A stretch of DNA of 64,000 bases. Source: Giardia intestinalis (Eukaryota). Shown in pieces: positions 18,434-63,456 of this stretch. A program made the position numbers and the translations under genes. How positions within the stretch are numbered: position 1 is the first letter of the stretch; every line of letters starts with the position of its first letter. The stretch is taken from NCBI GenBank assembly GCA_000002435.2, contig CM018793.1. The stretch is one strand, 5' to 3'. Under the pieces are notes generated by a model. The model had not been told where the DNA came from, searched no databases, and was given only the letters and a program-made list of their open reading frames with translations.

Positions 18434-18638
18434 GCTTTTTTGTCCTGACTCGGATTTTGTGCTGAATTTACATGTTGCTATTTATGAAACAAAGCTCACG
18501 CATACACAGGCTCCGGAAAAATAAATGTAGCGAACCCACGCGCAAGCGTTGCTACGAGGCGATGGAGACAAAAGCAGTTACGTTCGCAACTCTCTGAGGG
18601 TTCCTGATGCTTCCTTGGATGTCCGAGCCTTCCTTTAC

Positions 18639-21600
18639 TTAATCGACCGGCTGCAGGTGCGGCAGCATCGCCTTCAGGGCGGCTCCGCAGTCTTGCAGGT
18701 TCGTCGACATGTGCGCCGTCCGGAGGCGCGCGTACGCCTTTCCGTTGACCTCTGATTCACAGTGCAGTGAGTTGAGCCTCGTCGTCACGGAGCTTACAGA
18801 CGTCGGATGCGCATTGTGGATCGTGGCAAGAGTGATGTCTGTGAGCCGCGCCATTTGCTGGACAGCTAGCAGGGGGTTTTGGTAGACACCAAAGACACCA
18901 AACGACGAGCTTGCCGGGTTCCAGTCAAAGAGGGTGCCGGTCCGCGTGAGTGAATCAAAGACGATCCCCTCTTTCATCAAGGCCACCATAAAGGCCGTTC
19001 TGTTGATGGTCTGAAGGTCGCGATGCCAGAGGAAGGGAAGCGAAAGAACCACCATCGGGGCCTTAGTGATCTGTCGTTTCACAAGGGAAGTGTCATTGCG
19101 ACTTAGAACCCCGTTGATGCTGTCCCACGAGAGGTCTGCAAGGGCCATTGCCGAATAAAGATGGCAGATACCGGGAGTGAACCCGAACGATATGTTAACG
19201 AGAACCGCTGTGCTCCCGCTCTGGCTGGTATAGACGCGGTCGTTGATAGAGGGAGACACGGATTCATCGCCACGCGTTTGCGCATTAAGGCTGGAACAAG
19301 GAGGTCTTGTCCTTGTGGTGCCAAAGACTGTCGGAGACAAAAGGCTATTGAAGTGCGCCACTTCACTGTCATAAACCTTAACACAGTCGCTTGCAGATAA
19401 AACTTGGAAAGGATTCGGGCTGACGCTCATCGACTGCGTGGCCGGCGATCTTATAGACGGGGATGCCGTGGAGGGGAGGGTGCTACGCGTGGAAGTACTT
19501 CCCACGCTTATGTTGCTTAGATGTTGGCTTTCTCCTGCCGAAACCTTCGTACCCTCGGCATAAAGATAGTGGAGGACCACTACGCCGTGAATTCCATAGT
19601 CAATCAGCTTAGCAATAGTGTTGGCTGACTGCCTCTTTAGGGTGAAATAGATAGAGTCTGGAGCAGGTGATATGGTGCCAAAGGACCGTGTAGGAAGATG
19701 CGTCCCTGCCAGTGAGGAAGAAATGTCAACACTAGAGCCCAAGTATGTCACAACGGGCCGCTCGGAAGGTTCTATGTAAATGATAAGCCGCGCAGCCACA
19801 AAGGATTGCTGCAAATCCGCTTTTCTTGCTGATAAGATGTAATAATCGCCCACCCCTAGACTTGAACATATGTTCTTCACCACTCGTTCGTGGGGTTGCT
19901 CTGCATCTGTGATCGGGAGGATGGGATACAGCATGATTCGCCGAGTATGCTTAGACTCTCGTGTAAGACAGTACGATCGCATCCCTGCCAGCCCATACAG
20001 CACAGCTTCTGAAAAGACGTTAGCAAGGCCAGGAGTGAAGGGTGCAATGATGTACTCCGTATCGCTGGAAACCGATCTCTCGTTTCTTAGATACTTGTGG
20101 AGTTCGGAAATAGACTCAACAGCGAAGATTTGCGACTCATGGATGGACGTGAGGACAAGGTCTCTGCAATTAATTCGCTGGCTATGAAGAAGCATTGTTG
20201 TCGGTAACCTGAACGTCCTGGTGAGAGCATAAAGCTCAAAATCCGAGACGGAGTCGATGTTGGAAGAGAAGTATGGCAGAATCTCTAGGTCTTTGGAGCC
20301 TTGTAGTCGCAAGGCTTCCAAGCACACCTTATCAACGGCTCTTTGTAGCTCTTCGATAGTATCTGGAGACGACAGAAGCAGTGAGATGATAGACCCTGTA
20401 TAAGATAGGGTGACAGGGCGGTCGAATGCGTTCGCCTCCAGCGTTGACAAGAGAGTAGGGTGAATAATCACCAGCTTAGTCTTAACAAGAGTGGATAGCT
20501 GAGCTGGGAAAAAGAGGTTTTGATAGTTGCCAGCTAAAGAGGAGCCGTCAGCGTGAGTTGACGCTGAGGCTGCGCCATGCGTAACTGAATCAGGATAGGC
20601 CTCGGTGAAGGGAGTCGGGGAGGTCTGAGAGGCCCGGGGACCTGGCGTATCACTGAGAGTCTTGTTGGCGTGGAGTGGAGAGCTGTGTCTGGAAGGCACC
20701 TCTGGGCTAGGACAGCGCAGCAAGCTGTGGAGCATCTGGTTCCTTTTAAGGAGCATAGACTCTTGGGTAATACCAGTTAGAATAGATTCTATATATGCAA
20801 GAGAGACAGAATGCTCAGCCACAACAACGAGCTTTAGAACAGTTGGGTCGAGTAGGAAGTGAACGAGACTGAGCGGGCAGAAGGAAAAGCCCATGCTCGG
20901 GGTACTGTAGGAGTTGAAGAGAATCGCAGACTCGCCTCCGACGCTTGCGGGCGTAGACAGAAGAACGATGGGTACGGTGAACTTTCGAGGCCGAATCTCT
21001 AGGGCCCCTGTCTGCCGGGACCGCGCATCATCAAAGAGCACCCTTTCTACTCTATCATAGCAGACCGGCATGAAGTAACTAACAATAGGTTCATTGTATT
21101 TATGCTTAGAGAAGATAAATGCATCATAAGCCACGCTAGACGAGCGGCGCGCCACGCTCAAGGCACACAACTTGGCCAGGAATGCTTCTTGATGCTTCAA
21201 GAAAGTATTGCGTGCCCTGTCCGCTACCTTTGCACGGCGCTCTGCATAGGCACACCTGGCCAAGGAGCCTCTGTAGTGAGCCTGGAAAGCCAGGGCTGCA
21301 AGCCGGATGGTCACAAACCAAGTGCGCCGAGTGAGCATTCTGTACACAGATTGGACGACCAAGGCTGCTTTCAGTTCGGCTGGCCTATCGGTGCTGAGGG
21401 TTCTGCAGATAGGGTCGGCCACTTGACTGTCTTGAAAATTCGAAGGGCTGGCATGCAACTCAACACTTGCTCCTGCGGTTGTATTGGTCACCGATAAATT
21501 GCTCATGGAAAGACTCGCAGAGTCCTTCAAAGACTGAGTGCTTGAAGCTATATATTTAATGGCGGACTTAGTACTGCTCAAAGGTCCCAGGACATGCATC

Positions 21601-28355: not shown

Positions 28356-29162
28356 CTAAACATCACACACTATAGAGACATGCTCTACTGTTATAGAAAG
28401 CTGCTTAGAAATGAGGTCCCCGATAGCCCATAGGCCTGGCTGTTCCGATCTCCAATGGCCCAGCGCTGCCATGCTAATCCCCCGGTCCCGCGCAGTAGAG
28501 ATAGCGCTCTCCTTGGGCTCTCCAAATATAAATAAATCCACGTCTTCTATCTCGTCAATCAGGCCTGAAGAGCCTCCAGAACAAATATAGACGCGCTTTG
28601 GTGGGCTATTAATTGCAAAGGAAGAATTAAACGGCCAAACTCTTGTACCGTAAAACGTCGACGAACAAAGATCATTTTGTTGAGGAGTGCGTGTATCCAC
28701 CTCGTAGGCCCTCCTATCACAAAACTCGCTCAACCTTCGTATTATCTCCAATCCAGACAGATTGCCGGGATTTTCACAGTAGCAGCCGCACGAGTAAAAC
28801 TTCTCCAGCAGAAGCCCCGCAGCCTTACAGAGCTGGGCATTGTGTCCAATAATAGGATGAGCATCCATCGGGAGGTGATATGCAAATAGGTTTATGTCAT
28901 GTTTGAGGAGAGGAGTCAACCGCTTCTTTATCGAATCGGTTACTCGAAGGAATGATTTCCCAAAGAACCCATGATGCACAAGTATTGCATCAGCGTTTCT
29001 ATGGACAGCTTCTGCGATAAGGTCACCACAGAGGGACACACCTGTCACCAAGGTCCTAATTTCCTTTCTTCCTTCTACCTGGAGTCCGTTGTACTGACCA
29101 TCTGGCTGCTCTTCATACACCTCCGACAGAAACTGCAACAACTGGTCTCTGGAAACTGACAT
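28356..29162 (-). CDS. NIF3-family (DUF34/YbgI-like) dinuclear-metal-centre protein
   Basis: The 268-aa length is typical for the family. The N-terminal motif ...DAILVHHGFF matches the family HH metal-ligand motif, and the C-terminal ...LGHWRSEQPG matches the GHxxxE motif. Confidence 0.7.
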   Translation of the reverse strand: MSVSRDQLLQFLSEVYEEQPDGQYNGLQVEGRKEIRTLVTGVSLCGDLIAEAVHRNADAILVHHGFFGKSFLRVTDSIKKRLTPLLKHDINLFAYHLPMDAHPIIGHNAQLCKAAGLLLEKFYSCGCYCENPGNLSGLEIIRRLSEFCDRRAYEVDTRTPQQNDLCSSTFYGTRVWPFNSSFAINSPPKRVYICSGGSSGLIDEIEDVDLFIFGEPKESAISTARDRGISMAALGHWRSEQPGLWAIGDLISKQLSITVEHVSIVCDV

Positions 29163-32100
29163 ATGCTATCCTTTTATTTACAATGTGTCGTTTGAACGTA
29201 TTTTTCTATGAAAACTGAAGTTACAATACAATGTGTCCCTAGGAGAGGCGCCCGCCGCCCTCTGCCGTCTGCCCCGTGGGCCTCTCGAGTGCCCGCGAGG
29301 CGATCCGGCTAGCGTGTCCGCGCCCCTTACGTAGGCAGGGATTCTCGCCGTCTCTGTCCCGCCGCCCTGGGCACCAGCACAGGGTCGCTTGCTGCGCCAT
29401 CGTTGGTGCCTCTCCCGTGCCGAGCCAGGAGCACTGCAACCGCTGCAGCCTCTGTGTCAGGGCGGCCCGCACTGTTTTGTGGGTCCTCCTATGAGGTGCA
29501 AGCCGCGTGGGTGCCCTGATCGAGGTCGGCTAGCTGATCGGAAGCCTGAAGCCGGAATGACAGGCGCTCACAGTCTTCGACAGCTTTTGGTTCTGCTACT
29601 AGGGACAGATACCCACGATGACTATGCCCCCATCAGTTCGAATACAGTTGGCTGCGTTGTGGCCACGTCGTCAGCGTGTATCGGCTGGGCCCCTCAGAAG
29701 CTAAGAGTCTCGTCCAGAGCCCTTTCATCTCTATTTTGTTTCCAGTACTACTCCTGGAAGTCTACTAGCCCTTTGTCATGGTTAATGTGCAATGTTTCTA
29801 AGCTCTCAAGTCGTGGGACAGCCCGAGCACTCCTTGCCTTTCCCACTTCCTAGCAGGTTCACAAGCTGAGTTAGAGACGGCCGATTCTCCTGGCCCACAA
29901 CTAATAGACGCTGTACTAGCTCTACTCAGCTGCGCCTTCGGCTCTGTTTAGGCCAAGCTCCCAGTTCCCTGGAGGGACACCCTCATTCCCCATATCTTTA
30001 ATAAAGGCTAGAGCATTCATAGCCATACGTTCATGTAAAATATAACGCATGCTCCAAATACTCGAGGTGGTTATGCCCTTTCCTACTCCATGCCCCCGGG
30101 ACTGTATGCATTAGCATGACTTCAAAATATGCTCTGTTGAGCCTATCTTTTGGAGCACAGAAAACTAAAAGAACGGAGCCATGTTTTCGCCATGATCGAA
30201 CTCGGTTACGACTAGATATACTGTACTGCGACAGAGGAAAGCTCTCCATTAGAGTGTCTTTTCTCAGACACGTGAAATGCGCCATCAGAGCCGAAATCCG
30301 ACGAACCATCTCGAGGGCTTTGGCCTCTTGGATGGCCATTCTCCACTGTCTGAAGAACCTTATTGCGTCTTTAAGAGCAGACTTATAACATTGCATGCAC
30401 AGGCAAAAGGTTCTTTGTTGTGCAATACCTGTTTGTATTCAAAGGGATGTAAAGGCTTGAAGAGCTGCATAGTACACAGGTCGGCCTCAGTGGCGTCCGG
30501 AATAATCCCCTTCAATTAGATACCCCTACCTACCTCGTCCAATGTGTCTTTCAATGCATAAACAGTTCTATACAATCCTTTGCCAATCACTATAGCCAGC
30601 TTAATCATCGGATCATCACTCGTTTCAGTTTTCTCAGACATTTTTAGTTGATACTCGATGAGCTGACCTAATTGGTAGTGCCAAAGGTAGCATGAAGTTT
30701 GTCTGCTTTGCATATGGAAGGATCTGTTATATCCTTACAGAATTTGGCAGTGCAATGTATAATTACCAACAAGGATCTGTAAAGCAAATAGTCACAAGTT
30801 TTGAAGGATTTAGCAAGACTAAAAGTCACTCTCAGACCTCAACTTGAGTATAAGTGATGATCCTATCGAGAACTAAAGGTCCATAAACGTAACGGAACAG
30901 GCGAATAGTCCGATAATTATTTCTTCTTGAAACGACAGATTTTTTCATGCTTCTAAGTGATTAAACTAAAGACAAATTCTAGGCTAAATAAGAGCCCCGG
31001 AATCCCTTGAAGCATAAGCTATCCTATTACTGGGTTATTATAGAATCTAACTAACTCTAGTACTGTGGAATGGCAACCAGGTTTAAAGTAAGGGAAGATC
31101 TATGTGCTTACAGACTTTAGGCCCACGGGATAGGGGTAGCAAATCATATATTTGAAGCTAATTGTTTGCCATCTTATCTTCTAGCTGATTCACAGTAATG
31201 TGTATCCTTCGCACCGCAAATGGTTTCTAGTATCAAGAAAATGCATAGCAACTCTACCGGGCTACAGCTAAAATAAAGCAAGAAGCAAAGTCCACGGATA
31301 TATGCCCAACTATACATAGTTATCATAATTGGCTAGGGCCTCGCGGATTACACAGTGCCTTTGCGATGTGCAAGATAACATCGTATAGTAATGTGCACTC
31401 ATCCATAAAGTAGCACGCATTATTTGTACATATTGATGTAGCAGGGCCTGGTATCTCCAATTATCCGGATAGCTTTCTAACTCGACTAGTAATAAGTTGC
31501 AATATCTTTATTCTTCGCCAAATGGCCAGCATTTTCTGAGGGTCTAGACCAGGAATAGTGAAGTCAGCATTCAATTGAGTACTTGTACACTGCACATAGG
31601 GTGGGTTGGTCTCTACGCATCCAAAGTTTGTAGCGGAAACTCATTGCGTAACTATCTAAGAATCCTATGCAAAATCGATAGCTCTTAACGCAGATAGGCT
31701 ATCTTTTCAAATCTACAAATCGCTAAGATCCCCTTTCTAAAATCTTCGACATCACAGACCCCATGCCAGGCAGCAAACCTTGTGCTACATAATATGAGAG
31801 CCTCTAGGATGTGTAAACACCTGTGCGGCTACAGCGACGTATCTCCATTCACAGGTGCCAGTAGAACCGATGGACACTGGTGAAGCATATCGGTGGGTGG
31901 AAGATGTAGTGAGTCAGGCATTCTGTATACTGTCATTCACCACAGCTCCCGTAGTGAGCCATGGGGAGCCTGAAGACTGGTGCTCTATGGCGGCGTGAGT
32001 GTGGGTGGTGAGCCTAGAGCAGTCGCCGAATCGATGGTTTCGGGACAGCTTCTGTCATGAAGGATAATAGAACAGTGCAGCGAAGAACAGGTAACCCAAG

Positions 32101-35100
32101 TATCAAGAGATACACCTATAATGGCAACCAAGAGAAGTGCTATACATAGTTAGTGACCAATTCCCTTAGACAGGAAGCGGCAGATTATATGGCAGAAGAG
32201 AAGTGTTGTTACTGTCGGCCGATCAAGCATTCTAAGACATCGAAGCTGTGACGATGCATCTACCAGTGAGCTCCATCGTGCATTCTGAATGGCACGTTGC
32301 CCAACTAAGCTAGGGAAGTTCAGGAGATGACTACGCCCTTCTGTCATCGTATGTGCCCTTTGTGAACACATGTTTGACCCAGCATCCTCTGGCACTCAGA
32401 GTAAACCCAAGTGCAAGCAGGGTCAGGCTCATTGAGGCACACCTGCTACGAGTAGCCCCTAGTGTTGGCCAGTCACACCTGAGAGCGTATCTGTCTAGGA
32501 GAGCTCTATGTAGGGCGAGGAAGACCATCCTTCGCTGGTTGGCCGTGACTTGGAGCTCAGAACAGACAGGAAACTGAAGTGGTGGCTGGGCTATTGCTCC
32601 GCATCGTCTGTGCAGCCATGGCCAGGTCAGCCAGAAGGATGCCTCGATGTGCACATGATTGGCTTGTGTCTGAATACTAAAAAAACTTGAGGCAGCCACC
32701 GCGCCCGCCACCCCCAGGACAGAGCTTCTGCACGTATGGCTAGCTCCCCTTGTCAGTTCAGTCTATTGGTCCAATAGTCTGGGAACCCTCTGCCCCGCTC
32801 TCTGGCGTACGATGTATCGCAACTGCTCATAGGGGTAAGCAGCATGAAAGAGGAATTGCATGTGTAGACAGCGTGTTATGCCCGTCTCAGAGGACCGAGG
32901 TGTCTAACTACAGAGCGCTGCACCGAGCCATGCGCCCCACTGCCTTGCACTGGGGGCTGCCTCCACCACTGCACTTGCTACAACGGAGCTGTGTTGGCCC
33001 AGCAGATTAAGTAGATACTGCATCGACCCTATTTGACGATGTGTACACATCGCGTGATGTCCAATGGTGGAGCGGACACCGTGTGCCAAGGTGTCTGCTA
33101 TTAACGAAAAACAGCACTTGGTTGCACCAGAGATGCTTCTGTGTAAGCATGGGGTCTTCACACCTGTCCCCTATCAGCTATAGTGCCAGCTGTATATCCA
33201 GAAAGGTCCTGCAGAGCACTCCACCGTCTTTCAAGGTGAGACATGGGCTCCACACCTATAGCTAGAAACAGAACTCTGTACACCAACTGTTGTGACCCTC
33301 GTGTGGTAACTGGCCTGTATCATAATCAACTTACTAAACATCTATACACTTGTCTGGATGCCCGTTGCTGGTTTTAGACGGACCTGCGAAAAGGTTTGCC
33401 TTTGTCCGCATGACCTAGTGGTATCTAGTCTTGGTGACAGGCTTCAAGGAAGGAGGATGTTATTTGGGTACACAGAAGGCTACTCGTGTACAAAGATTCT
33501 CGGGAAGCAAATTTAGACAAAGAAGATGGAGAAAGCCAGGGAGCCCACTCTGTAATAGGATGACTAGGTATAGACCCATTTACAATAGGGAAGCACGTGA
33601 GTCATTCTGGCTTCTAAACATGGAAAGATCGTGGAGTCTGCGGACGACTTGGAGGCTGATTTGATTTTGTGCATTTGTAGCGAGGCAGAGGCTTTTGAAG
33701 ACCCACCTGTTCCGAAGTCGAGGGAGCTCGTTTCCTCTCCGTACGTGGCGCAAGACCCTATTGTAGAGGTATACGGTGCACACCAATATCAGTCAGCGTG
33801 TTTGCTACTCAGCAGTTCCTCAGTTGCGTCTTTTCGCAGTAGACGAGCCACCGGATGAGGCTCCCACAATCCACACGATTAGCTTTATAGTGCTCTGTAG
33901 ATGGCCATCCACCCTCACCAGGGGATGACTACATGCATTACGCAGTTTGAGGTACTTGGCAACCAAGGTGGCATAGTTAGCTCTTGCCCACTCAAGCTAG
34001 ACCTCAACCACCTTGCCAACCACATTCCAAGTCACGGTGTTTGTAGATGTCCACCTCAAGTCTACAAGGTGCATCCCACGACTGCACAGCGCGGATAGAA
34101 CCCTTTACCTGCTATAAGAGGCGCCAACCAGTTTGCTGCATCTGGATATCCCTTGTGCGCCCAACGGAGACTTAATGGATCACATTGCTGTGCACACCAG
34201 CCTCTCTGCTCGCGAGCTGCTTTAAGGCTCTCTCATTGTCTCGCCTCCACATGGTTGTCAGACTACCAAGCACTTTGTAACGTCAGCTGATCACCCGAGA
34301 TATCAAGCTTTCGTACAGCGGGTTGCTCAATGTGACACGAAATCTAGAGGGCACTGACTTTCTTAGCTTGCTGTCCATATAGCACTATCATCAATCTTCA
34401 GTCCAGTTGACCAGCACACAGTCCGTTCTCTGGCCAGCCAACCGGGCCTAGTCTTGCTGGTAGACTTTCGAGCATAAGAGTATCCCCTGACAGCGGTGGC
34501 CACGCTGTGTACATTGCCCGGATGATCACTCTTGGCAATGGCTCCAGGACCTGGGCACCCCAGACCAGAGGGACGACAACGGCCCAGTTCGTCTACGGCT
34601 CCACTATCCCTTAGTTAGCATGGAGTGTGGCAGCCCAGATAGCGCTGGCCGTCCGGTATCACCTTTTCTCCGGTGCGCGGGGGTAGCCCTCGTGTGAGAG
34701 GCGCTGTGATATGTTGGCTGGAGCCGGTCAGGCGAGCGGGACCACCGCTCTAGAAGTGCTGGCACATCATTGCGTGTCCGAAGGCATGCCCACCTCAGTG
34801 GGACCATCCCAGATGAGGACGGACGGGCACCGGTTCCTAGATGGGCCTGCGACCGGCGAGGGACAGTCTTTAAAGACGATCGGCCGGCAGAACCTGCTTC
34901 AGTGGCATAGGAGTCGACAGGGGGCAGGCTTATCGACGGTCTGCGGTGCAACCAGGTTAAGTCGTATGACAGACGGACATCCATCCGTTCGCGGTGGGCA
35001 TGTTGCGTGTCCCTAAGCAGAGGGGGCAGTCGTAGTGAGTCGCGATAGAACACGCAGCCATCCTCCACGGGGCATCGCTCCTGCCGGGCCTCAATGTAGG

Positions 35101-35456
35101 ACCTCGACAAGCAGTGTCTGAGGCATCTGCTTGTGATGACCCGTGGCTCGGGCTGCTGGGGATCGCACGGCCGGCTCCATCGGGTCGCTGGTCAGACATC
35201 CAGGAGAGCCTAGGAGTCCCTTGGCAGACCTTGTGACTGGCACAGCAGGAGAACTGGTCGCCAGGAGACCCTCACATCACAGCGAAGAGCGAGGCAGACC
35301 ACTGTCTAGCAGTTACCATGCGATGCGCCTTGCAACACAGAGGAGGGGCCTGCACTGATCGATCCATCTCACAGCCAGCCAGTCACATGAAAGTCGAATC
35401 AGCACGACCCCACCTCTCAGTGCAGACCATGTAGAGACCCTCCCTGCCAGCGCGTC
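29163..35456. other. About 6.3-kb region without credible protein-coding ORFs (GC-rich 29.24-29.56 kb; AT-rich about 30.7-31.8 kb; moderately GC-rich 31.9-35.4 kb)
   Basis: The six-frame track shows only scattered ORFs of at most 168 aa in mixed frames, against a background where more than 85% of the window is coding. Stop codons are dense in all frames across 30.7-31.8 kb. Confidence 0.6.
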
Positions 35457-35537
35457 ATGCAGCACAGGCAGATGCCACGAAGGGGCGGACTAGTGAACAG
35501 AGCTGTCATGGCCTGTGTGACAGAGCGCCGGGCCATA

Positions 35538-37313
35538 ATGTTCTACGCAGTTTTACTGATCGGCCTTGCGCTTCAGCTGGCGACAGAGGAGTGCACACCT
35601 GTTTCTTCCGGTGGCCCCAACACTTGCAAGGCCTGTGACGCTGTCATCAACGGCAAGAAGTACTGCTCGCAGTGCAATGATACTGGGAATTCTGATTCCA
35701 GTGGCGCCCCGACAGACGGAGTGTGCTCAGCAGACAATAACGAGTGCAGCCAAAAACAAGATGGGAAGTGTACACAGTGCGCTAATAAATCCTTCATGTA
35801 CAAGGGCGGATGCTACAAGGATAGCCAGGCACCTGGCAACACGATGTGTGAAACAGCAACTGATGGAGTGTGCACGCAGGCTAAGGCTGGGTACTTCCTA
35901 CCACCCGATGCTGATAGAGATAATGCACACCAATCGGTCATACCATGTGGAGATGACACAGTAGTAACGCTTGGAAATAGCAAACAGTACAAGGGCGTAC
36001 CGCACTGCACTCAGTGTGAGAAGCCCACAGAGGCAAGTGATACTACTACTGCCAAGGCTGCGACGTGCACGGCTTGTGAGGACGGGTTCTTTGGGGCTAC
36101 TTGTGAAGCATGCCAAGACGAGAATTGCGCTACGTGTGCCATGACAGGCAATAACAAGTGCAGTAAGTGTAAAGGAACTGGTACTAAGACATATCTGAAA
36201 GTGGACGGTGGCAGCACAGGCACGTGCGTCGAAGCATCTGGATGTACAGCTGCTACGTTTCCAAAGGTCGATGAACAACAGGGAAACAAGTGCGCTGCAT
36301 GTAATAGTGTGCCAGATGGTGGAATCGCTAATTGTGCGACGTGCAGTCTGCTCACTCAAGGATCTAGAGCCGCCCCTTTGGTCACATGCTTGACGTGTGA
36401 ACAAAATAAGTATCTCACTCCAGAAAAGAATGCGTGCTTAGATACCTGCCCTGCTGGAATGTATGCCGTTAGTGGCGATAGCGGCAATGTTTGTACCCCC
36501 TGCCACGAGTCGTGCGCAAGCTGTAGCAATGACGCAGCAACGTCGTGCACGGCCTGCTATCCGGGGCATGTGCTGAGTCGGTCGTCTGGTGACGCAGGAA
36601 CGTGCATAAAAGAGTGCACGGGAGACTTTATGGCCCACTGCAAGGCCGACGGCTGCTCACTGAACGTCGGAGGCTCGAAGTACTGCGATCAGTGCGAGGA
36701 GGGGTACGCCCCAGTCGACGGCGTCTGCACATCCATACCTGCAACAGCGAGAGATGCCTCCGGATGTAAGGCAAGTGGCGGGAAATGCACTGAGTGTGGG
36801 GCAAACTACGCTCTGTTATCGGGCGGATGCTACAACACACAGAAGCTTCCTGGTAGCTCTGTGTGTACGGCTGCACAGAATAAGGGACAATGCCAAACGT
36901 GTGCCAATGGACAAAGCCCAGCTGGAGGAAAATGTCCGGCGTGTACTGAAGGATGTGTGAAGTGTGCGGGTAGTAAGGAAACCTGCACAGATTGCTTAGC
37001 AGGGTATTACAAAGGTGCCGGTGATAAATGCTTCAAATGCACGGATAGTGATAAGGCTAGCTCTAATGCAATAACTGGTGTAGAAAACTGCATAAGCTGT
37101 GCCCCGCCAGCTGGTGGCAATGGCCCTGTCACCTGTTACGTAACGCAACAAAAGGCTGACGATGGCACCGGCGGAGATACTGGAGGAGACAGCACGAACA
37201 AGAGCGGCCTCTCCACGGGCGCCATCGCGGGGATCTCCGTCGCTGTGGTCGCTGTCGTGGGGGGCCTCGTGGGCTTCCTCTGCTGGTGGTTCCTCTGCCG
37301 GGGGAAGGCGTGA
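35538..37313 (+). CDS. Variant-specific surface protein (VSP), about 591 aa from the signal-peptide Met
   Basis: N-terminal hydrophobic signal peptide [15 protein letters not shown]; more than 25 CXXC motifs; GGCY motif; C-terminal TM segment plus the invariant [17 protein letters not shown] tail. The conserved 3' motif CTTAGGTAGTGAAT starts at the stop codon. The start is trimmed to the ATG at 35538. Confidence 0.9.
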
Positions 37314-37327
37314 CTTAGGTAGTGAAT
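37314..37327 (+). promoter_or_regulatory. Conserved VSP 3' end and poly(A) signal (CTTAGGTAGTGAAT)
   Basis: It directly abuts the VSP stop codon. The same TAGGTAGTRAAY core recurs at 37590, at 40296 (minus strand) and at 42942. Confidence 0.6.
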
Positions 37328-37395
37328 GCTGTACAGTGATAGTGATAGTGCTATGTGGTGTGACATGCTCTGTGGGTGACTGCAAGAGCTGTGTG

Positions 37396-37584
37396 ATGGA
37401 TGATGTGTGTGGGGAGTGCAGCGATGGGTTCAGCATAGAGGGTGGCAGGTGTGTGTCTTCTGGCACCAACAGGAGCGGGCTCAGCGCGGATGCCATCGCG
37501 GGGATCTCTGTGGCTGTCGTCGTCGTCGTCGGAGGGCTTGTCGGCTTCCTCTGCTGGTGGTTCGTGTGCAGAGGAAAAGCGTAG
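37396..37584 (+). pseudogene. Truncated VSP 3' fragment (last CXXC module, TM and CRGKA tail), a tandem partial duplicate of a VSP 3' end
   Basis: It encodes ...[76 protein letters not shown]. There is no signal peptide and no in-frame Met upstream except the one at 37396. It is followed by its own CTTAGGTAGTAAAT motif (37590-37603). Confidence 0.55.
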
Positions 37585-38135
37585 ATGTACTTAGGTAGTA
37601 AATACGTCACTGTATAAGCCTATCACTCCTGTTTCCAGGGCCTCGCCTGTAGGTGCATTCAAGGATCTCACGGGCAATTCTTATTCAATTTCTGGCCGTC
37701 CGGAGATGAGGGTTGGTTTTGGATAACATAACGAGAGAGTCCTCTCCAGTGATATATCCAGAGCCTAGCGCCTTCCCCGGTCGCTCCGCAGGGGTGTGCT
37801 CAGACCGAATGCGTACTTCGGTCCTTTCGGGGTTCAGGCCTTCTTACGGACTCTCTGGTCCACCAATGGCGCCTCTTCTTGGTCTTCCTTCGTGGCGGGT
37901 GAAGCTCCGGTCGCTGTCTTTTTTAGATGCCCCGTCTGTCGGGGGCTGCCATCGGGCTCTCCGCTGGCTGGGCCCCTCGGTGTCCGTCCGGCTGTGGTTC
38001 TGGGCAGTGGTCCCACAGTCGCGGTCACGTAGGTCCCAGTGGGCCGGCTGGTGGGTGGGGCGGGGGTATGGGGCGGTGAGGCTGGAGGGGCTCTGGTGGG
38101 ACCAGGTGGTGGGTGTTCGTATGTGCCCCTGAGCT
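37585..38135 (+). repeat. Inverted-repeat arm A (3' flank of VSP 35538..37313 and its tail fragment)
   Basis: The translated ORFs on this arm (37713..38132 +, 37796..38032 +, 37844..38287 -) reappear almost residue-for-residue on the opposite strand at 39626..40274. Direct nucleotide comparison of 37690-37800 with the reverse complement of 40090-40200 gives about 80% identity, rising above 90% over 37863-38075 versus 40024-39799. Confidence 0.8.
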
Positions 38136-39759
38136 CCTGATGAGTGGGGTGATCGCAGCTGTGGTGACTGGGGGCTGTCCATCTGTGACTCACCCCTCTG
38201 TGTGCTCGTGGTCTGTGAGTGCCTCCACCCAGACAACGCCTCAGGAGCCGTGCACACCGGGACAGAGAGGATGACCAAGGGGGTCAAGCAGCCCCGCTAC
38301 GAGAGATGAGAGTGCACAGCAACCAGCCTGATCTGCAGGGCTGCTCGAGCGATGTAGTGGTAGACGGCTCCCTCTGACAGCGACCCTGGTGACTGCACTG
38401 GCCTGCTCTCGAGGCTGAGTGACAGTGTGCACAGATGGACCTGAGTGCAGGAGGACCATCCACACACGAACAGACTGTGTAGACCCAGAGAGGACTGGAG
38501 TCTGCTCGGGACACGCTGACTGTGCCCCCATACGAGAGCACCAGGCAACCACCCGAGCACCCGAGAGGCAACAACAGACACGGGCACCAGAGATCCCCAA
38601 CCAGATACATTGCTACGCTCATCCACAGGGGCATCAGAGGACCAGGTGGGGTCACCCTCACAGTCAGGGCCTGATAGGAAGCCAGAGGACTCACGCAGCA
38701 CAGTAGGTCCAAGGGAGGCACACTCCAGGCAGGTGAGCAGTGGCAGAGCCCTGACAGCTGCCAGCCCCCATGACACCCAGGCAGGCACCAGACTCACCGA
38801 AGACTCCGCTGGCCTCGACTGTCTTCATTGATGACCCGAGGGGGCAGCAGCCAGAGGAGTGAGGAGGCCTTCGGACGCCACAAGAGGCCCGGCTGTCCAG
38901 CAGGCTACGAGGCAGACAGGTGACCTCTGAGCACCACCCAGGCACAGAGCCGACCATCAGAGTGATGCCCGATCACAGAGATGATCACGAGCACCCTCCA
39001 CTGCACTCTGAGGGGCTGTCAATCATCCCAGCTGCCTCTCATAGCAGACCTCCTTGGGGGCAGTGCAGTGGGTCCCAGCTCATGCAGGAGGGTGCACGCC
39101 CCTCGGCATAGGATGCCCCGGCTCTCCCCGAGGGGTCATCAGAGCCACGAGAGGTGTTAAGGTTAGTAGACCACACCGGGAACTCCCGAGGGCACAGCAG
39201 GTGATGTTGGGTGATCCTCAGCGTGCTCCTCTCTGATGGTAGAGCATCCTGAGACCAAGGAGGCTCACCTCTGCCTACGGACGACACACAGCGCTCCACA
39301 ACGAGGACCCACCAGGAGCAGCACAGCTGGTCACGGGGATAGTGCAGCCACCCGGTGCCCCACCGTGTTAGTCTTTTGAGTCATCACACTAGAGGCATGA
39401 GAGAACCCCATCCCATCCACAGGCTCATCCACACCCCTGCTGGCCCGAGGTGAACTACCGTCGAGGCACTGGACAGGGCATGCCAGGGGCTCAGCAGATC
39501 CACACAGAGCATCAGCACAGAGCATCAGCGAGTAGCAGGAGAGGCTGCGATGGCCTGCCTCAACCCTCACGCACCAGCCAGACAGAGAGGCAGTACTGCC
39601 CGAGACAAGGGGCCAAGGGAGGCGCTCAGTCAGGGGGACACGACACGATCGTCGGTGCCTGTGTCTTGGAGTGCAACGAAGGCTGGGGATCAGACACAAC
39701 CACCTTAGCAAACAGAGCGGGGATCACCCACCACCCCACTGGCCCACTAGACCCAGGGA
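38136..39759. other. GC-rich spacer, ORF-free (only Pro/Arg-rich GC-artefact ORFs), between the VSP-flank inverted-repeat arms
   Basis: No ORF has recognisable protein features. Composition is above 60% GC. It contains a small direct duplication acagagcatcagc x2 at about 39503-39530. Confidence 0.5.
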
Positions 39760-40310
39760 CACATACAAGCACCCCCCACCTCAGCCCCCACCAGGAGCCT
39801 ACCAGCCTCACCGCCCCATACCCCCGCCCCACCCACCAGCCGGCCCACTGGGACCTACGTGACCGCGACTGTGGGACCACTGCCCAGAACCACAGCCGGA
39901 CGGACACCGAGGGGCCCAGCCAGCGGAGAGCCCGATGGCAGCCCCCGACAGACGGGGCATCTAAAAAAGACAGCGACCAGAGCTTCACCCACCACGAAGG
40001 AAGACCAAGGAGAGGCGCCACTGGTGGACGATGTACATGGTGAGTAAGCGGAATCCCAGGCCGACTGAGCAAGCATTCCCGGGTGTGCACACTCAGCTGA
40101 GCACACCCCTGCGGAGCGACCAGGGAAGGTGCCAGGTTTTAGATATACTAAAAGAGAGGAGCTCCTCGTTATATCATCCACAACCAACCTTTGTCTCCGG
40201 ACACGGCCAAAGGAGCGAGAATTTATTCGTGAGATTTCTGGATCGTACCTACAAGCACCCGGTAGCACATCCATATAAGCTACATAAAGTAACGCGTTTA
40301 CTACCTAAGT
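39760..40310 (-). repeat. Inverted-repeat arm B (3' flank of VSP 40311..42638)
   Basis: Reverse-complement counterpart of arm A. It includes the VSP 3' motif (GTTTACTACCTAAG, 40296-40309 on the plus strand, reading CTTAGGTAGTAAAC on the minus strand) and the downstream block tggccgtgtccggagacaaaggttgg...ggtcgctccgcaggggtgtgctcag. Confidence 0.8.
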
Positions 40311-42638
40311 CTACGCCTTCCCCCTGCAGAGGAACCACCAGCAGAGGAAGCCCACGAGACCCCCCACAACGACGATGACTGCGACGGAGATCCCCGCGAT
40401 GGCGCCAGTGGAGAGCCCGCTCTTGTTCGTGCTACCACCGGCACTGTCACCGTTCATGAGGTAGCAGAGAACGGAGCCAGTACTAGACGATGGAGGAGCG
40501 CAGCTCATGCAGCCAGCAACTCCCTTGACACTTCCACTGTTGCTGTCACACGAAGTGCATGGTCCAGCTGCTGATCCGACCATATAGTACCCAGCTGCGC
40601 ATGACGTACACTGGTCAGAGCTATCTGCAGCTGAACATGTATTACAGGTTGAATGACACGAGGGGCATGCTCCATCATTGGGCCGAAGACTATTAGCACA
40701 TGTTTCGCACTTACCCCTGCTATCAGCTAATGTGCATATCTGTTTGCCTGGCTGCTTGGTAGTTTCATAGCAGCCGCCTTCCTTGAGGAAGTAGTTAGCG
40801 GCGCATTTGATACATGCTCCATTATTCATTTCAGTACAGAAAGCTACTCGTGCGTTACTTGTTGTACAGACCCCGTTCAGAGGAGCCTGATTATCCACTG
40901 AGCACTGGGAGCAGTAGTCTGTCCCGCCGATCCTTGCCCCACAGACCTTACATCCGTTCTTGTCCGCCGTACACGCATCCCCGCAGGTGCCCCCTTGCAC
41001 AGGATCACTACTTTTGTATATTAATGCCTTGCCAGCAGGACAAGCACTACACTGATTGTTGGCTGGCCCAACGCACTCAGCGCACTCAGGGCTGCATGCC
41101 TTACACTTCCTGTCAGTATCTCCATAGTATCCGCTGATGGTCGTGCAGTCAGGTATGCACTGGTTTGTTGGAGTGAGATAATTGTTGTCATTACATTCAG
41201 TGCAGACCTCTCTGTCAGTCTTCGGGTTATCACAGGCCTTGCAGTTGGGAGTATTGCAGGCCCCTGCCTTCGGAACACACGTGAGCCCGTCCTCTGACGG
41301 CTGGTACGTCTCCGTGCACGTGCAGATTCCTCCTGCCTCGTTTGCGTTATCGGGGCACTTCGCTATGCAGCCCTTTCCGTTCGGCTGGACCTTCTGTCCG
41401 ACCGTCGCACAGCCCGTGCATGTCTGCTCGCCCCCAGGAGGCGTTGCGCACGTGCTACAGCCGGGTATCGGTGGGTCACAGGCCGTTTTCAGGACACACG
41501 TGAGCCCGTCCTCTGACGGCTGGTACGTCTCCGTGCACGTGCAGATTCCTCCTGCCTCGTTTGCGTTATCGGGGCACTTCGCTATGCAGCCCTTTCCGTT
41601 CGGCTGGACCTTCTGTCCGACCGTCGCACAGCCCGTGCATGTCTGCTCGCCCCCAGGAGGCGTTGCGCACGTGCTACAGCCGGGTATCGGTGGGTCACAG
41701 GCCGTTTTCAGGACACACGTGAGCCCGTCCTCTGACGGCTGGTACGTCTCCGTGCACGTGCAGATTCCTCCTGCCTCGTTTGCGTTATCGGGGCACTTCG
41801 CTATGCAGCCCTTTCCGTTCGGCTGGACCTTCTGTCCGACCGTCGCACAGCCCGTGCATGTCTGCTCGCCCCCAGGAGGCGTTGCGCACGTGCTACAGCC
41901 GGGTATCGGTGGGTCACAGGCCGTTTTCAGGACACACGTGAGCCCGTCCTCTGACGGCTGGTACGTCTCCGTGCACGTGCAGATTCCTCCTGCCTCGTTT
42001 GCGTTATCGGGGCACTTCGCTATGCAGCCCTTTCCGTTCGGCTGGACCTTCTGTCCGACCGTCGCACAGCCCGTGCATGTCTGCTCGCCCCCAGGAGGCG
42101 TTGCGCACGTGCTACAGCCGGGTATCGGTGGGTCACAGGCCGTTTTCAGGACACACGTGAGCCCGTCCTCTGACGGCTGGTACGTCTCCGTGCACGTGCA
42201 GATTCCTCCTGCCTCGTTTGCGTTATCGGGGCACTTCGCTATGCAGCCCTTTCCGTTCGGCTGGACCTTCTGTCCGACCGTCGCACAGCCCGTGCATGTC
42301 TGCTCGCCCCCAGGAGGCGTTGCGCACGTGCTACAGCCGGGTATCGGTGGGTCACAGGCCGTTTTCAGGACACACGTGAGCCCGTCCTCTGACGGCTGGT
42401 ACGTCTCCGTGCACGTGCAGATTCCTCCTGCCTCGTTTGCGTTATCGGGGCACTTCGCTATGCAGCCCTTTCCGTTCGGCTGGACCTTCTGTCCGACCGT
42501 CGCACAGCCCGTGCATGTCTGCTCGCCCCCAGGAGGCGTTGCGCACGTGCTACAGCCGGGTATCGGTGGGTCACAGGCCGTTTTCGGGCCGATTCCTGCT
42601 AGAACCGTTGTGCACACTAAAAGAATTACTGCCAACAT
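40311..42638 (-). CDS. Variant-specific surface protein (VSP, 775 aa) containing six identical 73-aa tandem repeats
   Basis: Signal peptide MLAVILLVCTTVLAGIG; a six-fold repeat KTACDPPIPGCSTCATPPGGEQTCTGCATVGQKVQPNGKGCIAKCPDNANEAGGICTCTETYQPSEDGLTCVL; then canonical CXXC-rich VSP body, GGCY motif, TM segment and [12 protein letters not shown] tail. Confidence 0.9.
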   Translation of the reverse strand: MLAVILLVCTTVLAGIGPKTACDPPIPGCSTCATPPGGEQTCTGCATVGQKVQPNGKGCIAKCPDNANEAGGICTCTETYQPSEDGLTCVLKTACDPPIPGCSTCATPPGGEQTCTGCATVGQKVQPNGKGCIAKCPDNANEAGGICTCTETYQPSEDGLTCVLKTACDPPIPGCSTCATPPGGEQTCTGCATVGQKVQPNGKGCIAKCPDNANEAGGICTCTETYQPSEDGLTCVLKTACDPPIPGCSTCATPPGGEQTCTGCATVGQKVQPNGKGCIAKCPDNANEAGGICTCTETYQPSEDGLTCVLKTACDPPIPGCSTCATPPGGEQTCTGCATVGQKVQPNGKGCIAKCPDNANEAGGICTCTETYQPSEDGLTCVLKTACDPPIPGCSTCATPPGGEQTCTGCATVGQKVQPNGKGCIAKCPDNANEAGGICTCTETYQPSEDGLTCVPKAGACNTPNCKACDNPKTDREVCTECNDNNYLTPTNQCIPDCTTISGYYGDTDRKCKACSPECAECVGPANNQCSACPAGKALIYKSSDPVQGGTCGDACTADKNGCKVCGARIGGTDYCSQCSVDNQAPLNGVCTTSNARVAFCTEMNNGACIKCAANYFLKEGGCYETTKQPGKQICTLADSRGKCETCANSLRPNDGACPSCHSTCNTCSAADSSDQCTSCAAGYYMVGSAAGPCTSCDSNSGSVKGVAGCMSCAPPSSSTGSVLCYLMNGDSAGGSTNKSGLSTGAIAGISVAVIVVVGGLVGFLCWWFLCRGKA
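41271..42584. repeat. Six 219-bp tandem repeats, nucleotide-identical where compared, inside the VSP coding sequence
   Basis: The string gtgagcccgtcctctgacggctggtacgtctccgtgcacgtgcag recurs at 41281, 41500, 41719, 41938, 42157 and 42376 with identical intervening sequence. Only the outermost junctions differ. Confidence 0.9.
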
Positions 42639-42922
42639 TAAGTTTAAGCTTACGCTCGATTATTATTCTCTTCAATTAAGCTTATAATTAATCCATAAGT
42701 TATAGACAAACCACTGTTACCTTTTGATAAATCAATTAGAATGGAAAAGAATAAAATCAAGAGCACACCTACCAGAGGCCGGCTGATAGTGCGGTTCTCC
42801 CTGGCTTCAATAGAAACAGGATGAGTGAGGGCTAGACTCAGATCGTGCGTCCCTTGCGGAAACTAATAATTGTTCAGAGATGCATTCCTATACATTGCTG
42901 TCAGTATGTTTGTCGACTTTTT

Positions 42923-42955
42923 TGCAGAGGCAAGGTGTAGATTTAGGTAGTAAAT
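42923..42955 (+). pseudogene. Relic of a VSP 3' end: codons CRGKV* followed by the conserved TTTAGGTAGTAAAT motif
   Basis: tgc aga ggc aag gtg tag at 42923-42940 is one substitution from the invariant CRGKA*. It is followed by atttaggtagtaaatgcg. The upstream frame opens after a stop only about 20 codons earlier, so no gene body remains. Confidence 0.5.
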
Positions 42956-44101
42956 GCGTTAACTGATATGTGCAGATCCCTCTGTGCCCAGCTCGGGCTC
43001 CTCAGTAGCATACCTGGATCTGATGGATAGAGAAGCACACCTACTATAAGCATCTCTTGCTGATGGCCTGTAACCACCTTTTACAGTCCAGTGTGCATCC
43101 TCTAGTGCTCCACTTCCCCCTGTGGCCAGTGTATCTCTAGGGCGAAGCAGACTCTTTTGAAAAGGTATTGACCTAGCACCATGAAGGAGCGCGGGGCACT
43201 GCACTGGGCCCGTACACAGGTCAGAGGCCCGTAGTTGTAGGTCAGCAAGATCCCGGTGCGACGGTCGGGTGCTCGTCCATCAGAGCTCTCAGGATGGTGG
43301 CCAGGGGGCAGGAGCGACGCCTTTCTTGTCGGTCGCGACGCTGGTCAGTTGTCGATGCAAAATGTGCAAGGCCCCACAGGCGAGGAGCACAGAAGGGCAC
43401 AGGGAGCGTAAGGCCACCAGCAACTCGTAACTTTTTATATCTTGGTGGCCGGTCTCAGCACTTCGTAGGTGCAGATATGAGAAGCTGGGCCGAGTGATCT
43501 GCTGGTGGAGGGGCCGACACACACTTCTCTAAGGGTTCTGCCATGGGTGACGACGATGGTAGGCCGCACCACTGCAGGACCGACGCACGCCAGAAATAGA
43601 TGAAAGGCTCGCAAGCAGGTGCAGACTGGAGCGCCAGCCGCTGGCCGGATCACCCGCACAGGCACGCTCTGGTTACTTCAATAGATGGTTCAGTGGCACC
43701 TTAACGGAAAACACTGCTGCGCTCCACTTGCTGGCCATTTGAGGCACGCAGGTTCGATTGGTCCCAGGGCCACCGCTAAGCGTGGCATGACAGGCTATCT
43801 CCCAACATCGGGCGACGGTAAGACTCACGCCTACTTTTAGCCAACTGAGCTCGAAGCAATCCATGCCCTTGCGGGTCCATACTGGCGTGGTCTGTACAGC
43901 TATGCGCAGTGATGCATAACAGACCTCGGAACCGTAGACACCCTGGGCGCGCCCCTTGCTGCGCAGGGCCAGGGACGCCGGGAGGGCTCGGGCCGCCAAA
44001 TGCCTTGGTTCGCAGTCTTTCGCAGGAAAACCAGCTAGGAAGCGTAACCGCACGCCTCTTCGAGGTGAACGGGAATGGCGCAGCACTGTTCAGATTATAA
44101 C

Positions 44102-63340: not shown

Positions 63341-63456
63341 ACGGCCGAAACTTGCTTAGAATACGAAAATAGACCCTATCCAGACAATATAAGGCGGTGT
63401 CTCATATAGCCGCCTTCCTATTTTTGTTACTTAGGAGTTTTAAAAGATGAACCTTG

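What the first reader, a model, noticed from the sequence alone, without database searches (positions are those of the whole stretch)
29163..35456. A 6.3-kb gene desert with a roughly 1.1-kb AT-rich core in an otherwise wall-to-wall coding genome
Elsewhere in the window intergenic spacers are 1-370 nt. Here 6.3 kb has no ORF longer than 168 aa and frames switch constantly. Composition is heterogeneous: very GC-rich at 29.24-29.56 kb, then AT-rich with stops in all frames at about 30.7-31.8 kb, then about 58% GC to 35.4 kb. Candidate explanations are a heavily degenerated mobile element such as a dead non-LTR retrotransposon of the GilD kind, a decayed gene cluster, long non-coding RNA loci, or a structural chromosomal element. 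It sits immediately upstream of the VSP module, and VSP clusters in Giardia are often adjacent to repeat or retroelement debris.
Basis: seen in the sequence. Interest (0 to 1): 0.65.

Follow-up and report, generated by a model that had tools for sequence, protein, structure and literature searches.

The report
Dead kinase gene beside VSP
The 6.3-kb "gene desert" in this Giardia WB chromosome is real but ordinary: it holds a long-dead NEK kinase gene, an old AT-rich spacer and fast-changing non-coding DNA upstream of a surface-antigen (VSP) gene, which is how VSP neighbourhoods in this genome are already known to look.

Summary
Window 29163-35537 has no ORF above 168 aa, no codon periodicity and no repeats.

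It splits into three parts:
1. 29239-30641 (minus strand) is a unitary pseudogene of a NEK kinase/ankyrin gene. The gene is intact (579-588 aa) at the same position in assemblage B and in two more distant Giardia lineages. WB carries 26 frameshifting indels and 6 stops. Eleven frameshifts and two stop positions are shared with assemblage E (P15), so the gene died before A and E split. It has since drifted at about the neutral rate.
2. 30642-~31900 is the AT-rich core. It is the spacer upstream of that NEK gene, is present in every lineage examined, and has the base composition of ordinary Giardia intergenic DNA.
3. ~31900-35537 is non-coding DNA upstream of a VSP gene whose real start is 35538. 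It is highly variable between isolates and its origin is unknown.

I found no reverse transcriptase, VSP remnant, known RNA family or tandem repeat. However, Pfam also failed to detect the proven dead NEK, so the Pfam negatives are weak evidence.

The literature already describes VSP flanks as gene-poor and variable, and NEK/VSP genes as sites where synteny breaks. Interest is low.

The parts
28356..29162 (-). NIF3-related gene (GL50803_9239 by the orthologue naming GSB_9239/DHA2_9239). This is the left boundary of the desert.
   Evidence: Pfam DUF34_NIF3, E 3e-35. The protein is identical to XP_001708805.1/KAE8305453.1 of G. intestinalis WB C6.
29163..29238 (.). Short spacer between the NIF3 ATG and the relic stop codon of the dead NEK gene. 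The equivalent spacer is 66 nt in assemblage B.
   Evidence: DNA alignment with the intact assemblage B locus. The CTCTCCTAG stop context is still recognisable.
29239..30641 (-). Unitary pseudogene of a NEK kinase + ankyrin-repeat gene. The kinase-domain remnant is about 29845-30641. The ankyrin remnant is about 29239-29560 and is the GC-rich block (GC 0.68).
   Evidence: tblastn with the intact 582-aa assemblage B neighbour of NIF3 gives: aa 1-82 to 30641-30405 (45% identity); aa 76-273 to 30426-29845; aa 186-305 in another frame; joint E 1e-23. The full-length DNA alignment shows 26 frameshifting indels and 6 in-frame stops. Thirteen indels and stops at codons 42 and 148 are shared with P15. 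The intact B gene hits Pkinase at 6e-34 and Ank_2 at 1e-63.
30642..30668 (-). Relic promoter-proximal motif of the NEK gene (GGTCAGCTCATCGAGTATCAACTAAAA immediately before the ATG).
   Evidence: This is the only block upstream of NEK that is recognisable across A, E, B and a distant lineage: CAATCTCATTGAATAC..TAAAAA.
30642..31900 (.). AT-rich core (GC 0.40). It is the ancestral spacer upstream of the NEK gene.
   Evidence: Upstream of NEK, P15 has an AT-rich core (GC 0.35-0.38) and assemblage B has an AT-rich stretch of at least 800 nt (GC 0.34-0.46). Contigs of two distant lineages are AT-rich right up to where they end. WB-P15 identity here is 0.66-0.75, against 0.72 at four-fold degenerate sites of flanking genes. 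Genuine short spacers in the window have GC 0.28-0.42.
31901..35537 (.). Variable non-coding segment upstream of the VSP gene; origin unknown. GC is 0.51, rising to 0.61 next to the VSP.
   Evidence: No periodicity. No protein or Pfam similarity. Contig L024 aligns end to end with 31975-35760 at 76% identity (a mosaic of 0.55-0.92). L028 and L029 align at 94-98%. Substitutions against L024 are not three-periodic (p 0.25-0.8), unlike those in the VSP coding control (p 0.009). P15 is only weakly alignable here (0.44-0.63).
33630..33810 (.). Small island still alignable with P15 (about 69% identity), containing a near-identical 21-mer, TTGATTTTGTGCATTTGTAGC.
   Evidence: blastn and tblastx give equal scores in all frames on both strands, so the homology is non-coding. 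No stable RNA fold (z +1.5 and +1.8).
35538..37313 (+). VSP gene, the right boundary. The true start is [13 protein letters not shown]..., not the ATG at 35457.
   Evidence: Pfam VSP, E 5e-87. The start and signal peptide are conserved in L024, while the upstream in-frame ATGs are not.

Best explanation
The desert is non-functional or weakly functional DNA made of three pieces with different histories.

1. **A dead NEK gene.** A NEK kinase/ankyrin gene once sat tail-to-head next to NIF3. It was inactivated in the common ancestor of assemblages A and E and has decayed by point mutations and small-to-medium deletions at about the neutral rate. Its ankyrin-coding tail is the GC-rich block.
2. **An old spacer.** The AT-rich core is the unusually long spacer that lay between the divergently oriented NEK gene and a VSP gene. 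It has the base composition of ordinary Giardia intergenic DNA.
3. **Fast-changing VSP-upstream DNA.** The remaining 3.6 kb is non-coding sequence upstream of the VSP. It turns over quickly and exists in strongly diverged versions among isolates. This is typical of recombination-prone VSP neighbourhoods.

Shown here: the pseudogene, its age, the neutral drift, the conserved position of the spacer, and the non-coding evolution of the right segment. Inferred: that nothing in the desert is currently under selection, and that the right segment is either very old dead sequence or VSP-linked filler.
For: **Source and layout in other lineages**
- The window is G. intestinalis WB.
- Assemblage B contigs carry an intact 582-aa NEK gene 66 nt upstream of NIF3 on the same strand.
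- A further B isolate shows the full layout VSP(-), 1168-nt spacer, NEK(+), NIF3(+). This is the WB order.

**The pseudogene**
- tblastn and a full-length DNA alignment place the WB relic at 29239-30641.
- WB has 26 frameshifting indels and 6 stops. P15 has 22 frameshifting indels and 13 stops.
- 13 indels are identical in position and size in both (11 of them frameshifting), and 2 stop positions are shared.
- Zero frameshifts or stops occur in four intact orthologues.
- No orthologue above 36% identity exists among A or E proteins.

**Rate of change**
- WB-P15 identity is 0.69 in the pseudogene and 0.66-0.75 across 29163-32000. Four-fold degenerate sites of flanking genes give 0.72.

**The AT-rich spacer**
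- P15 has the same compositional architecture and no ORF above 180 aa.
- The spacer is present upstream of NEK in all lineages examined.
- Its GC matches genuine spacers in the window.

**The right segment**
- It evolves without codon periodicity.
- It has diverged homologues at 76% and 94-98% identity.

**Literature**
- VSP surroundings are gene-poor with elevated allelic variation, and 306 pseudogenes are annotated in WB (PMC7000408).
- 26 of the 184 NEK genes tabulated for G. intestinalis are pseudogenised (PMC7641422).
- Synteny breaks cluster at VSP/NEK/21.1 genes (PMC3091692).
Against: - The origin of 31.9-35.5 kb is not established. Assemblage B has only 1.17 kb between NEK and VSP, so about 3.7 kb in A/E is an unexplained gain or a loss in B.
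- This segment diverges from P15 faster than neutral sites do (0.44-0.63 against 0.72). That needs replacement or recombination rather than simple drift.
- I could not examine transcription, small RNAs or chromatin, so absence of function is inferred only from lack of constraint.
- A spacer of roughly 1 kb persisting in every lineage of a very compact genome is not explained by neutrality alone.
- I could not check whether the WB annotation already lists this pseudogene.
Confidence: 0.78

Rival explanations
1. The right-hand 3.6 kb (31.9-35.5 kb), or part of it, is a very old dead non-LTR retrotransposon of the GilD kind that inserted between the spacer and the VSP before A and E split.
For: - A/E carry about 3.7 kb more between NEK and VSP than assemblage B does.
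- A 76%-identical copy exists in other samples, which could mean the sequence is multi-copy.
- Retroelement debris is reported at some synteny breaks (PMC3091692).
- The Pfam negatives are weak, because Pfam also fails on the proven dead NEK even after frame correction.
Against: - No RT or endonuclease hit in six frames at E<=1.
- No hit for stop-free segments among 5.8 billion proteins.
- The 195-aa segment matches only short unnamed ORFs. The two looked up lie on contigs homologous to this segment.
- No poly(A), tandem or terminal repeats.
- Homology with L024 runs collinearly through the whole segment into the VSP coding sequence rather than stopping at element ends.
- No second copy in the 64-kb window.
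Confidence: 0.06
2. The AT-rich spacer and/or the VSP-upstream segment is a functional non-coding unit. Examples would be a regulatory or insulating region, or the source of non-coding or antisense transcripts involved in VSP control.
For: - An AT-rich spacer of 0.8-1.2 kb lies upstream of NEK in every lineage where the contig reaches that far, and contigs of two distant lineages are AT-rich to their ends, although the genome's median spacer is about 81 nt (PMC7641422).
- A near-identical 21-mer sits in an otherwise diverged region between A and E.
- Blocks of 83-92% identity occur within the 76% WB-L024 alignment.
Against: - Sequence identity in the spacer equals that of synonymous sites.
- Nothing beyond a roughly 25-nt promoter motif is conserved between distant assemblages.
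- No Rfam family at E<=1.
- The conserved island folds less stably than shuffles.
- The high-identity blocks are not conserved in P15, which fits recent recombination better than constraint.
Confidence: 0.1
3. The AT-rich core is a structural chromosomal element such as a centromere or a replication origin.
For: It is an AT-rich, ORF-free stretch of about 1.2 kb whose position is conserved.
Against: - No tandem or inverted repeats.
- Its composition is simply that of ordinary Giardia spacers.
- It drifts at the neutral rate.
- It stays with the 5' end of the NEK gene even where that gene sits in a different gene neighbourhood. This fits a gene-associated spacer better than a chromosome-level element.
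- I found no published cenH3 map.
Confidence: 0.03
4. The desert hides a real gene that is broken only by sequencing or assembly errors.
For: Short-read contigs from more than 20 samples all stop at window 29267, so the region is hard to assemble.
Against: - There are 26 frameshifts and 6 stops, many shared with an independently sequenced assemblage E contig.
- An assemblage A2 contig is 96.7% identical over the first 543 nt of the desert, which covers most of the ankyrin-coding relic of the dead NEK gene.
- There is no codon periodicity anywhere in the desert.
Confidence: 0.01

Closest known systems
Gene-poor, variable VSP-flanking regions of the G. intestinalis WB genome (Xu et al. 2020, PMC7000408)
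   Same: It lies directly upstream of a VSP gene, has very low coding density, shows strong between-isolate divergence, and short-read assemblies break here.
   Different: That paper describes the pattern genome-wide. Here the content of one such region is resolved into a dated pseudogene, an ancestral spacer and a variable segment.
Pseudogenised NEK kinases of Giardia (26 of 184 tabulated for G. intestinalis; PMC7641422 Table 2) and assemblage-specific NEK/ARP genes (PMC10132058)
   Same: It is a kinase + ankyrin architecture, belongs to a fast-turnover family found at synteny breaks, and has a positional orthologue that is intact in another assemblage.
   Different: This copy is so decayed that Pfam no longer recognises it even after frame correction. 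Its death is shared by assemblages A and E.
GilD dead non-LTR retrotransposon (Arkhipova & Morrison 2001, cited in PMC7000408)
   Same: Both are degenerate and ORF-free.
   Different: Here there is no RT or endonuclease similarity, no repeat structure and no element boundaries, and the left half has a different proven origin. I could not compare the sequence directly with GilD.

Membership tests
Unitary pseudogene of a NEK kinase/ankyrin gene | Significant similarity to an intact gene of the family | tested here: met
   tblastn E 1e-23 to the assemblage B NEK. DNA alignment runs over the whole gene from ATG to stop.
Unitary pseudogene of a NEK kinase/ankyrin gene | Positional orthology (same neighbours and orientation) | tested here: met
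   In B the intact gene lies 66 nt upstream of NIF3 on the same strand, with a VSP beyond the spacer.
Unitary pseudogene of a NEK kinase/ankyrin gene | Multiple disabling lesions | tested here: met
   26 frameshifting indels and 6 in-frame stops in WB. None in four intact orthologues.
Unitary pseudogene of a NEK kinase/ankyrin gene | Evolution without coding constraint | tested here: met
   WB-P15 identity 0.69, against 0.72 at four-fold degenerate sites. No three-base periodicity.
Unitary pseudogene of a NEK kinase/ankyrin gene | Recognisable kinase and ankyrin domains by family profile | tested here: not met
   Pfam finds nothing in six frames or in the frame-corrected translation, while the intact orthologue hits Pkinase at 6e-34 and Ank_2 at 1e-63. 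This reflects the depth of decay and does not contradict the orthology.
Non-LTR retrotransposon (GilD/GilM/GilT) | Reverse-transcriptase or endonuclease remnant | tested here: not met
   No Pfam family at E<=1 in six frames. No protein hit. Sensitivity is limited.
Non-LTR retrotransposon (GilD/GilM/GilT) | Poly(A) or 3' repeat, defined ends, dispersed copies | tested here: inconclusive
   No such repeats and no second copy in the window. One 76% homologue elsewhere is collinear into the VSP gene. Genome-wide copy number was not testable.
Non-LTR retrotransposon (GilD/GilM/GilT) | Nucleotide similarity to the published consensus | not testable with these tools
VSP pseudogene | CXXC-rich frames, or the TM + CRGKA tail, or similarity to VSPs | tested here: not met
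   No Pfam VSP hit. tblastn with three VSPs finds nothing in 29163-35537, although it does detect a 47-aa VSP tail fragment at 37441-37581.
Known non-coding RNA family | Match to an Rfam covariance model | tested here: not met
   No match at E<=1 in 28800-35800. As a positive control, GlsR2 was found at 18526-18631.
Centromere or other structural element | Repeat arrays or cenH3 occupancy | tested here: inconclusive
   No tandem or inverted repeats. cenH3 data are not testable here, and no such map was found in the literature search.
Gene-poor VSP-flanking region (Xu et al. 2020) | Adjacent to a VSP, low coding density, elevated sequence variation | tested here: met
   A VSP starts at 35538. 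No coding signal. Homologues in other samples are 76-98% identical, against 98.9% overall nucleotide identity (97.6% at four-fold sites) for the flanking genes in WB vs DH.

The most novel reading that the evidence does not exclude
The AT-rich spacer plus the 3.6-kb VSP-upstream segment could be a maintained non-coding unit attached to this VSP locus, acting as a regulator, an insulator or a transcript source. Under this reading it exists as hyper-divergent haplotypes. The L024 type is 99.9-100% identical across four independent samples, yet only 76% identical to WB. One of those samples carries the A2-type NIF3, and flanking genes of A1 and A2 are about 99% identical. That would point to ancient balanced polymorphism or introgression at a VSP locus rather than junk.
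Probability: 0.08. Interest if true: 0.5.

Novelty: new member of a known kind. Interest (0 to 1): 0.15.

Why it matters
The main value is for annotation and for calibrating methods.
- It shows that an apparently empty stretch of the reference Giardia genome is a datable gene loss. A NEK kinase is intact in assemblage B and two other lineages but dead in A and E.
- It corrects the start of the neighbouring VSP gene to 35538.
- It shows that family-profile searches miss pseudogenes of this age, while positional orthologues recover them.
- It adds one concrete example to the known link between VSP/NEK genes, synteny breaks and gene-poor DNA.

It does not open a new question.

Tried and rejected
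- **Six-frame Pfam scans of the desert:** nothing (searches failed on stop codons).
- **Rfam:** nothing at gathering threshold or at E<=1. No tRNAs.
- **Repeat searches** in the region, in the whole window, and by sensitive self/rest blastn and tblastx: nothing involving the desert.
- **Protein search with a concatenate of all stop-free segments from 30.5-35.5 kb against 5.8 billion proteins:** nothing.
- **A concatenate handed to the exhaustive HMMER search:** The single 195-aa segment found only four short unnamed ORFs; the two looked up lie on contigs homologous to this segment.
- **tblastn of all window proteins, three VSPs and the five G. muris genes upstream of NIF3 against the desert:** only the NEK signal.
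- **Pfam on the longest ORFs of the P15 and L024 homologous regions:** nothing.
- **RNA folding of the conserved island:** no stability signal.
- **The Giardia ncRNA 3'-end motif, recalled from memory:** found after the snoRNA, as expected. It occurs once inside the pseudogene (29997-30007, minus strand), at a frequency compatible with chance.
- **Two metagenome scans for more copies:** empty.
- **Exact look-ups of the VSP protein:** not on record.
- **The GilD paper:** not held, and a literature search for GilD gave nothing useful.
Full report
**Source and observation**

The window is Giardia intestinalis WB.
- It carries the Giardia snoRNA GlsR2.
- It carries VSP genes.
- Its NIF3-related protein is identical to XP_001708805.1/KAE8305453.1 of WB clone C6.

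The described desert is real.
- No ORF above 168 aa overlaps 29163-35456.
- The longest stop-free run is 195 codons, within the range of shuffled sequence (161 +/- 34).
- Three-base periodicity equals that of shuffles (0.73 in both), against 3.4 in neighbouring genes.

| Stretch | GC |
|---|---|
| 29240-29560 | 0.68 |
| 30650-31850 | 0.40 |
| 31850-34400 | 0.51 |
| 34400-35537 | 0.61 |

Two corrections are needed.
1. The VSP starts at 35538 (MFYAVLL...), not at 35457.
2. Two further ORF-poor stretches flank the second VSP, at 37314-40310 and 42639-44101. The desert is therefore part of a roughly 15-kb gene-poor VSP neighbourhood.

**Left part: a dead NEK kinase gene**

Contigs of assemblage B (GS and GS_B) carry an intact 582-aa kinase + ankyrin gene. 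It lies 66 nt upstream of NIF3 on the same strand.

tblastn of that protein against the window gives these matches, with a joint E of 1e-23:
- aa 1-82 to 30641-30405 (45% identity);
- aa 76-273 to 30426-29845;
- aa 186-305 in another frame;
- a weak ankyrin match at 29440-29351.

Intact orthologues of 579-588 aa also exist in another B isolate and in two more distant Giardia lineages. No protein from assemblage A or E exceeds 36% identity.

A DNA alignment of the six sequences runs from the ATG (30641) to the relic stop codon (29239-29241). Counted against the B reading frame:
- WB has 26 frameshifting indels and 6 in-frame stops.
- P15 (assemblage E) has 22 frameshifting indels and 13 stops.
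- 13 indels are identical in position and size in both (11 of them frameshifting), and stops at codons 42 and 148 are shared.
- The four intact orthologues have none.

The gene was therefore already dead in the common ancestor of A and E.

WB-P15 identity in the relic is 0.69, and four-fold degenerate sites of the flanking genes give 0.72. That is drift at about the neutral rate.

The GC-rich block at 29.24-29.56 kb is the ankyrin-coding tail. The same part of the intact B gene has GC 0.58-0.68.

**Middle part: the AT-rich core**

An AT-rich stretch sits directly upstream of the NEK start codon in every lineage examined.
- P15 has GC 0.35-0.38 over about 900 nt.
- Two B isolates have GC 0.34-0.46 over about 800 nt.
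- Contigs of the two distant lineages are AT-rich right up to where they end.

In the B isolate L023 the complete layout is VSP(-), 1168-nt spacer, NEK(+), NIF3(+). This is the WB order. The core is therefore the ancestral spacer between a VSP and the NEK gene.

Further properties of the core:
- Its composition equals that of genuine short spacers in the window (GC 0.28-0.42).
- WB-P15 identity across it is 0.66-0.75, the same as at synonymous sites.
- Only a roughly 25-nt promoter-proximal motif is recognisable between distant assemblages.
- It has no repeats, no Rfam match and no tRNA.

**Right part: 31.9-35.5 kb**

This segment has no periodicity. It shows no similarity to any protein, to Pfam, to VSPs or to the rest of the window.

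An exhaustive HMMER search with its longest stop-free stretch found only four short unnamed ORFs. Two were looked up, and both lie on contigs homologous to this segment.
- L024 (3.7 kb) aligns end to end with 31975-35760 at 76% identity, as a mosaic of 0.55-0.92. The alignment includes the VSP start.
- L025, L026 and L027 come from three further samples and are 99.9-100% identical to L024.
- L028 and L029 are 94-98% identical to WB.

Substitutions between WB and L024 are spread evenly over the three codon phases in the desert (p 0.25-0.8). They are biased towards one phase in the 200-nt VSP coding control (p 0.009). The segment has therefore evolved as non-coding DNA.

P15 is collinear with this segment but barely alignable (0.44-0.63), apart from an island at 33630-33810. 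That island shows no frame preference and no stable fold.

Two things are unresolved.
- I could not determine whether L024 is the A2 orthologue, an allele or a paralogue.
- I could not determine why A/E have about 3.7 kb more than B between NEK and VSP.

**Caveat on negative results**

Pfam fails to recognise the proven NEK relic even after frame correction. The intact orthologue scores 6e-34 for Pkinase and 1e-63 for Ank_2.

Profile-based negatives in the right segment, including the absence of reverse transcriptase, are therefore weak evidence. A gene or element that died equally long ago and has no surviving orthologue would be invisible.

**Context and literature**

The region is a synteny breakpoint.
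- In G. muris the genes upstream of NIF3 are different.
- In the two distant lineages the NEK gene is followed by genes that in WB lie at or beyond the right end of the window.

Short-read assemblies of A1, A2, B and the two distant lineages all break within or next to the region.

All of this matches published descriptions:
- VSP surroundings are gene-poor with elevated allelic variation, and WB has 306 annotated pseudogenes (PMC7000408).
- 26 of the 184 NEK genes tabulated for G. intestinalis are pseudogenised (PMC7641422).
- Synteny breaks concentrate at VSP, NEK and Protein 21.1 genes (PMC3091692).
- NEK/ARP genes show assemblage-specific presence and absence (PMC10132058).

**Verdict**

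The thing is a new, well-dated example of a known kind. Interest is low.

Noticed in passing
window 29267 (loci L001-L010): Short-read (Logan) contigs from more than 20 WB-type samples all end at exactly the same base, 104 nt upstream of the NIF3 ATG, inside the GC-rich ankyrin relic. A2-type contigs end 139, 227 or 542 nt upstream. Possible causes are a heterozygous or repeated sequence starting there, or a coverage drop in GC-rich DNA.
   Followed up: partly
L011 vs L023 (assemblage B isolates): Two B isolates have almost identical NIF3 genes (98% identity at four-fold degenerate sites), but their adjacent NEK genes are only 81% identical in protein (86% at four-fold sites). Diversity rises sharply towards the VSP.
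   Followed up: partly
L024-L027 vs window 31975-35760: A sequence type 99.9-100% identical across four independent samples is only 76% identical to WB over the VSP-upstream segment. One of those samples carries the A2-type NIF3, and A1/A2 flanking genes are about 99% identical. It could be a paralogue, an allele or a hyper-divergent orthologue.
   Followed up: partly
L021, L022 vs window 57278-64000: In two distant Giardia lineages the intact NEK gene is followed by a 599-aa gene, an EF-hand gene, ERCC4, dNK, a 586-aa gene and a 2026-aa gene. The last two match the right end of this window. A rearrangement therefore has one breakpoint exactly at the 3' end of the NEK gene.
   Followed up: partly
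window 35457-35537: The longest ORF of the VSP gene starts at an upstream ATG (35457). The conserved start with a typical VSP signal peptide is at 35538. The upstream ATGs are not conserved in the homologous contig L024.
   Followed up: yes
window 37441-37581; 37858-38125 and 39762-40029: A 47-aa VSP C-terminal fragment (membrane anchor and tail) lies just after the first VSP. A 268-nt inverted repeat (92% complementary) and further inverted arms link the two VSPs, which sit tail to tail about 3 kb apart.
   Followed up: no
window 41269-42663: The second VSP gene (40311-42638, minus strand) contains six tandem copies of a 219-nt unit, five of them 99-100% identical.
   Followed up: no
window 18526-18642: The snoRNA GlsR2 (Rfam, 134 bits) is followed immediately by the motif CCTTTACTTAA. 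This fits the Giardia ncRNA 3'-end motif I recalled from memory. The same motif occurs once inside the NEK pseudogene (29997-30007, minus strand), probably by chance (5 matches in the window against 2.3 expected).
   Followed up: partly
window 42639-44101: There is a further 1.46-kb ORF-free stretch (GC 0.54) between the second VSP and the next gene. I did not examine it.
   Followed up: no
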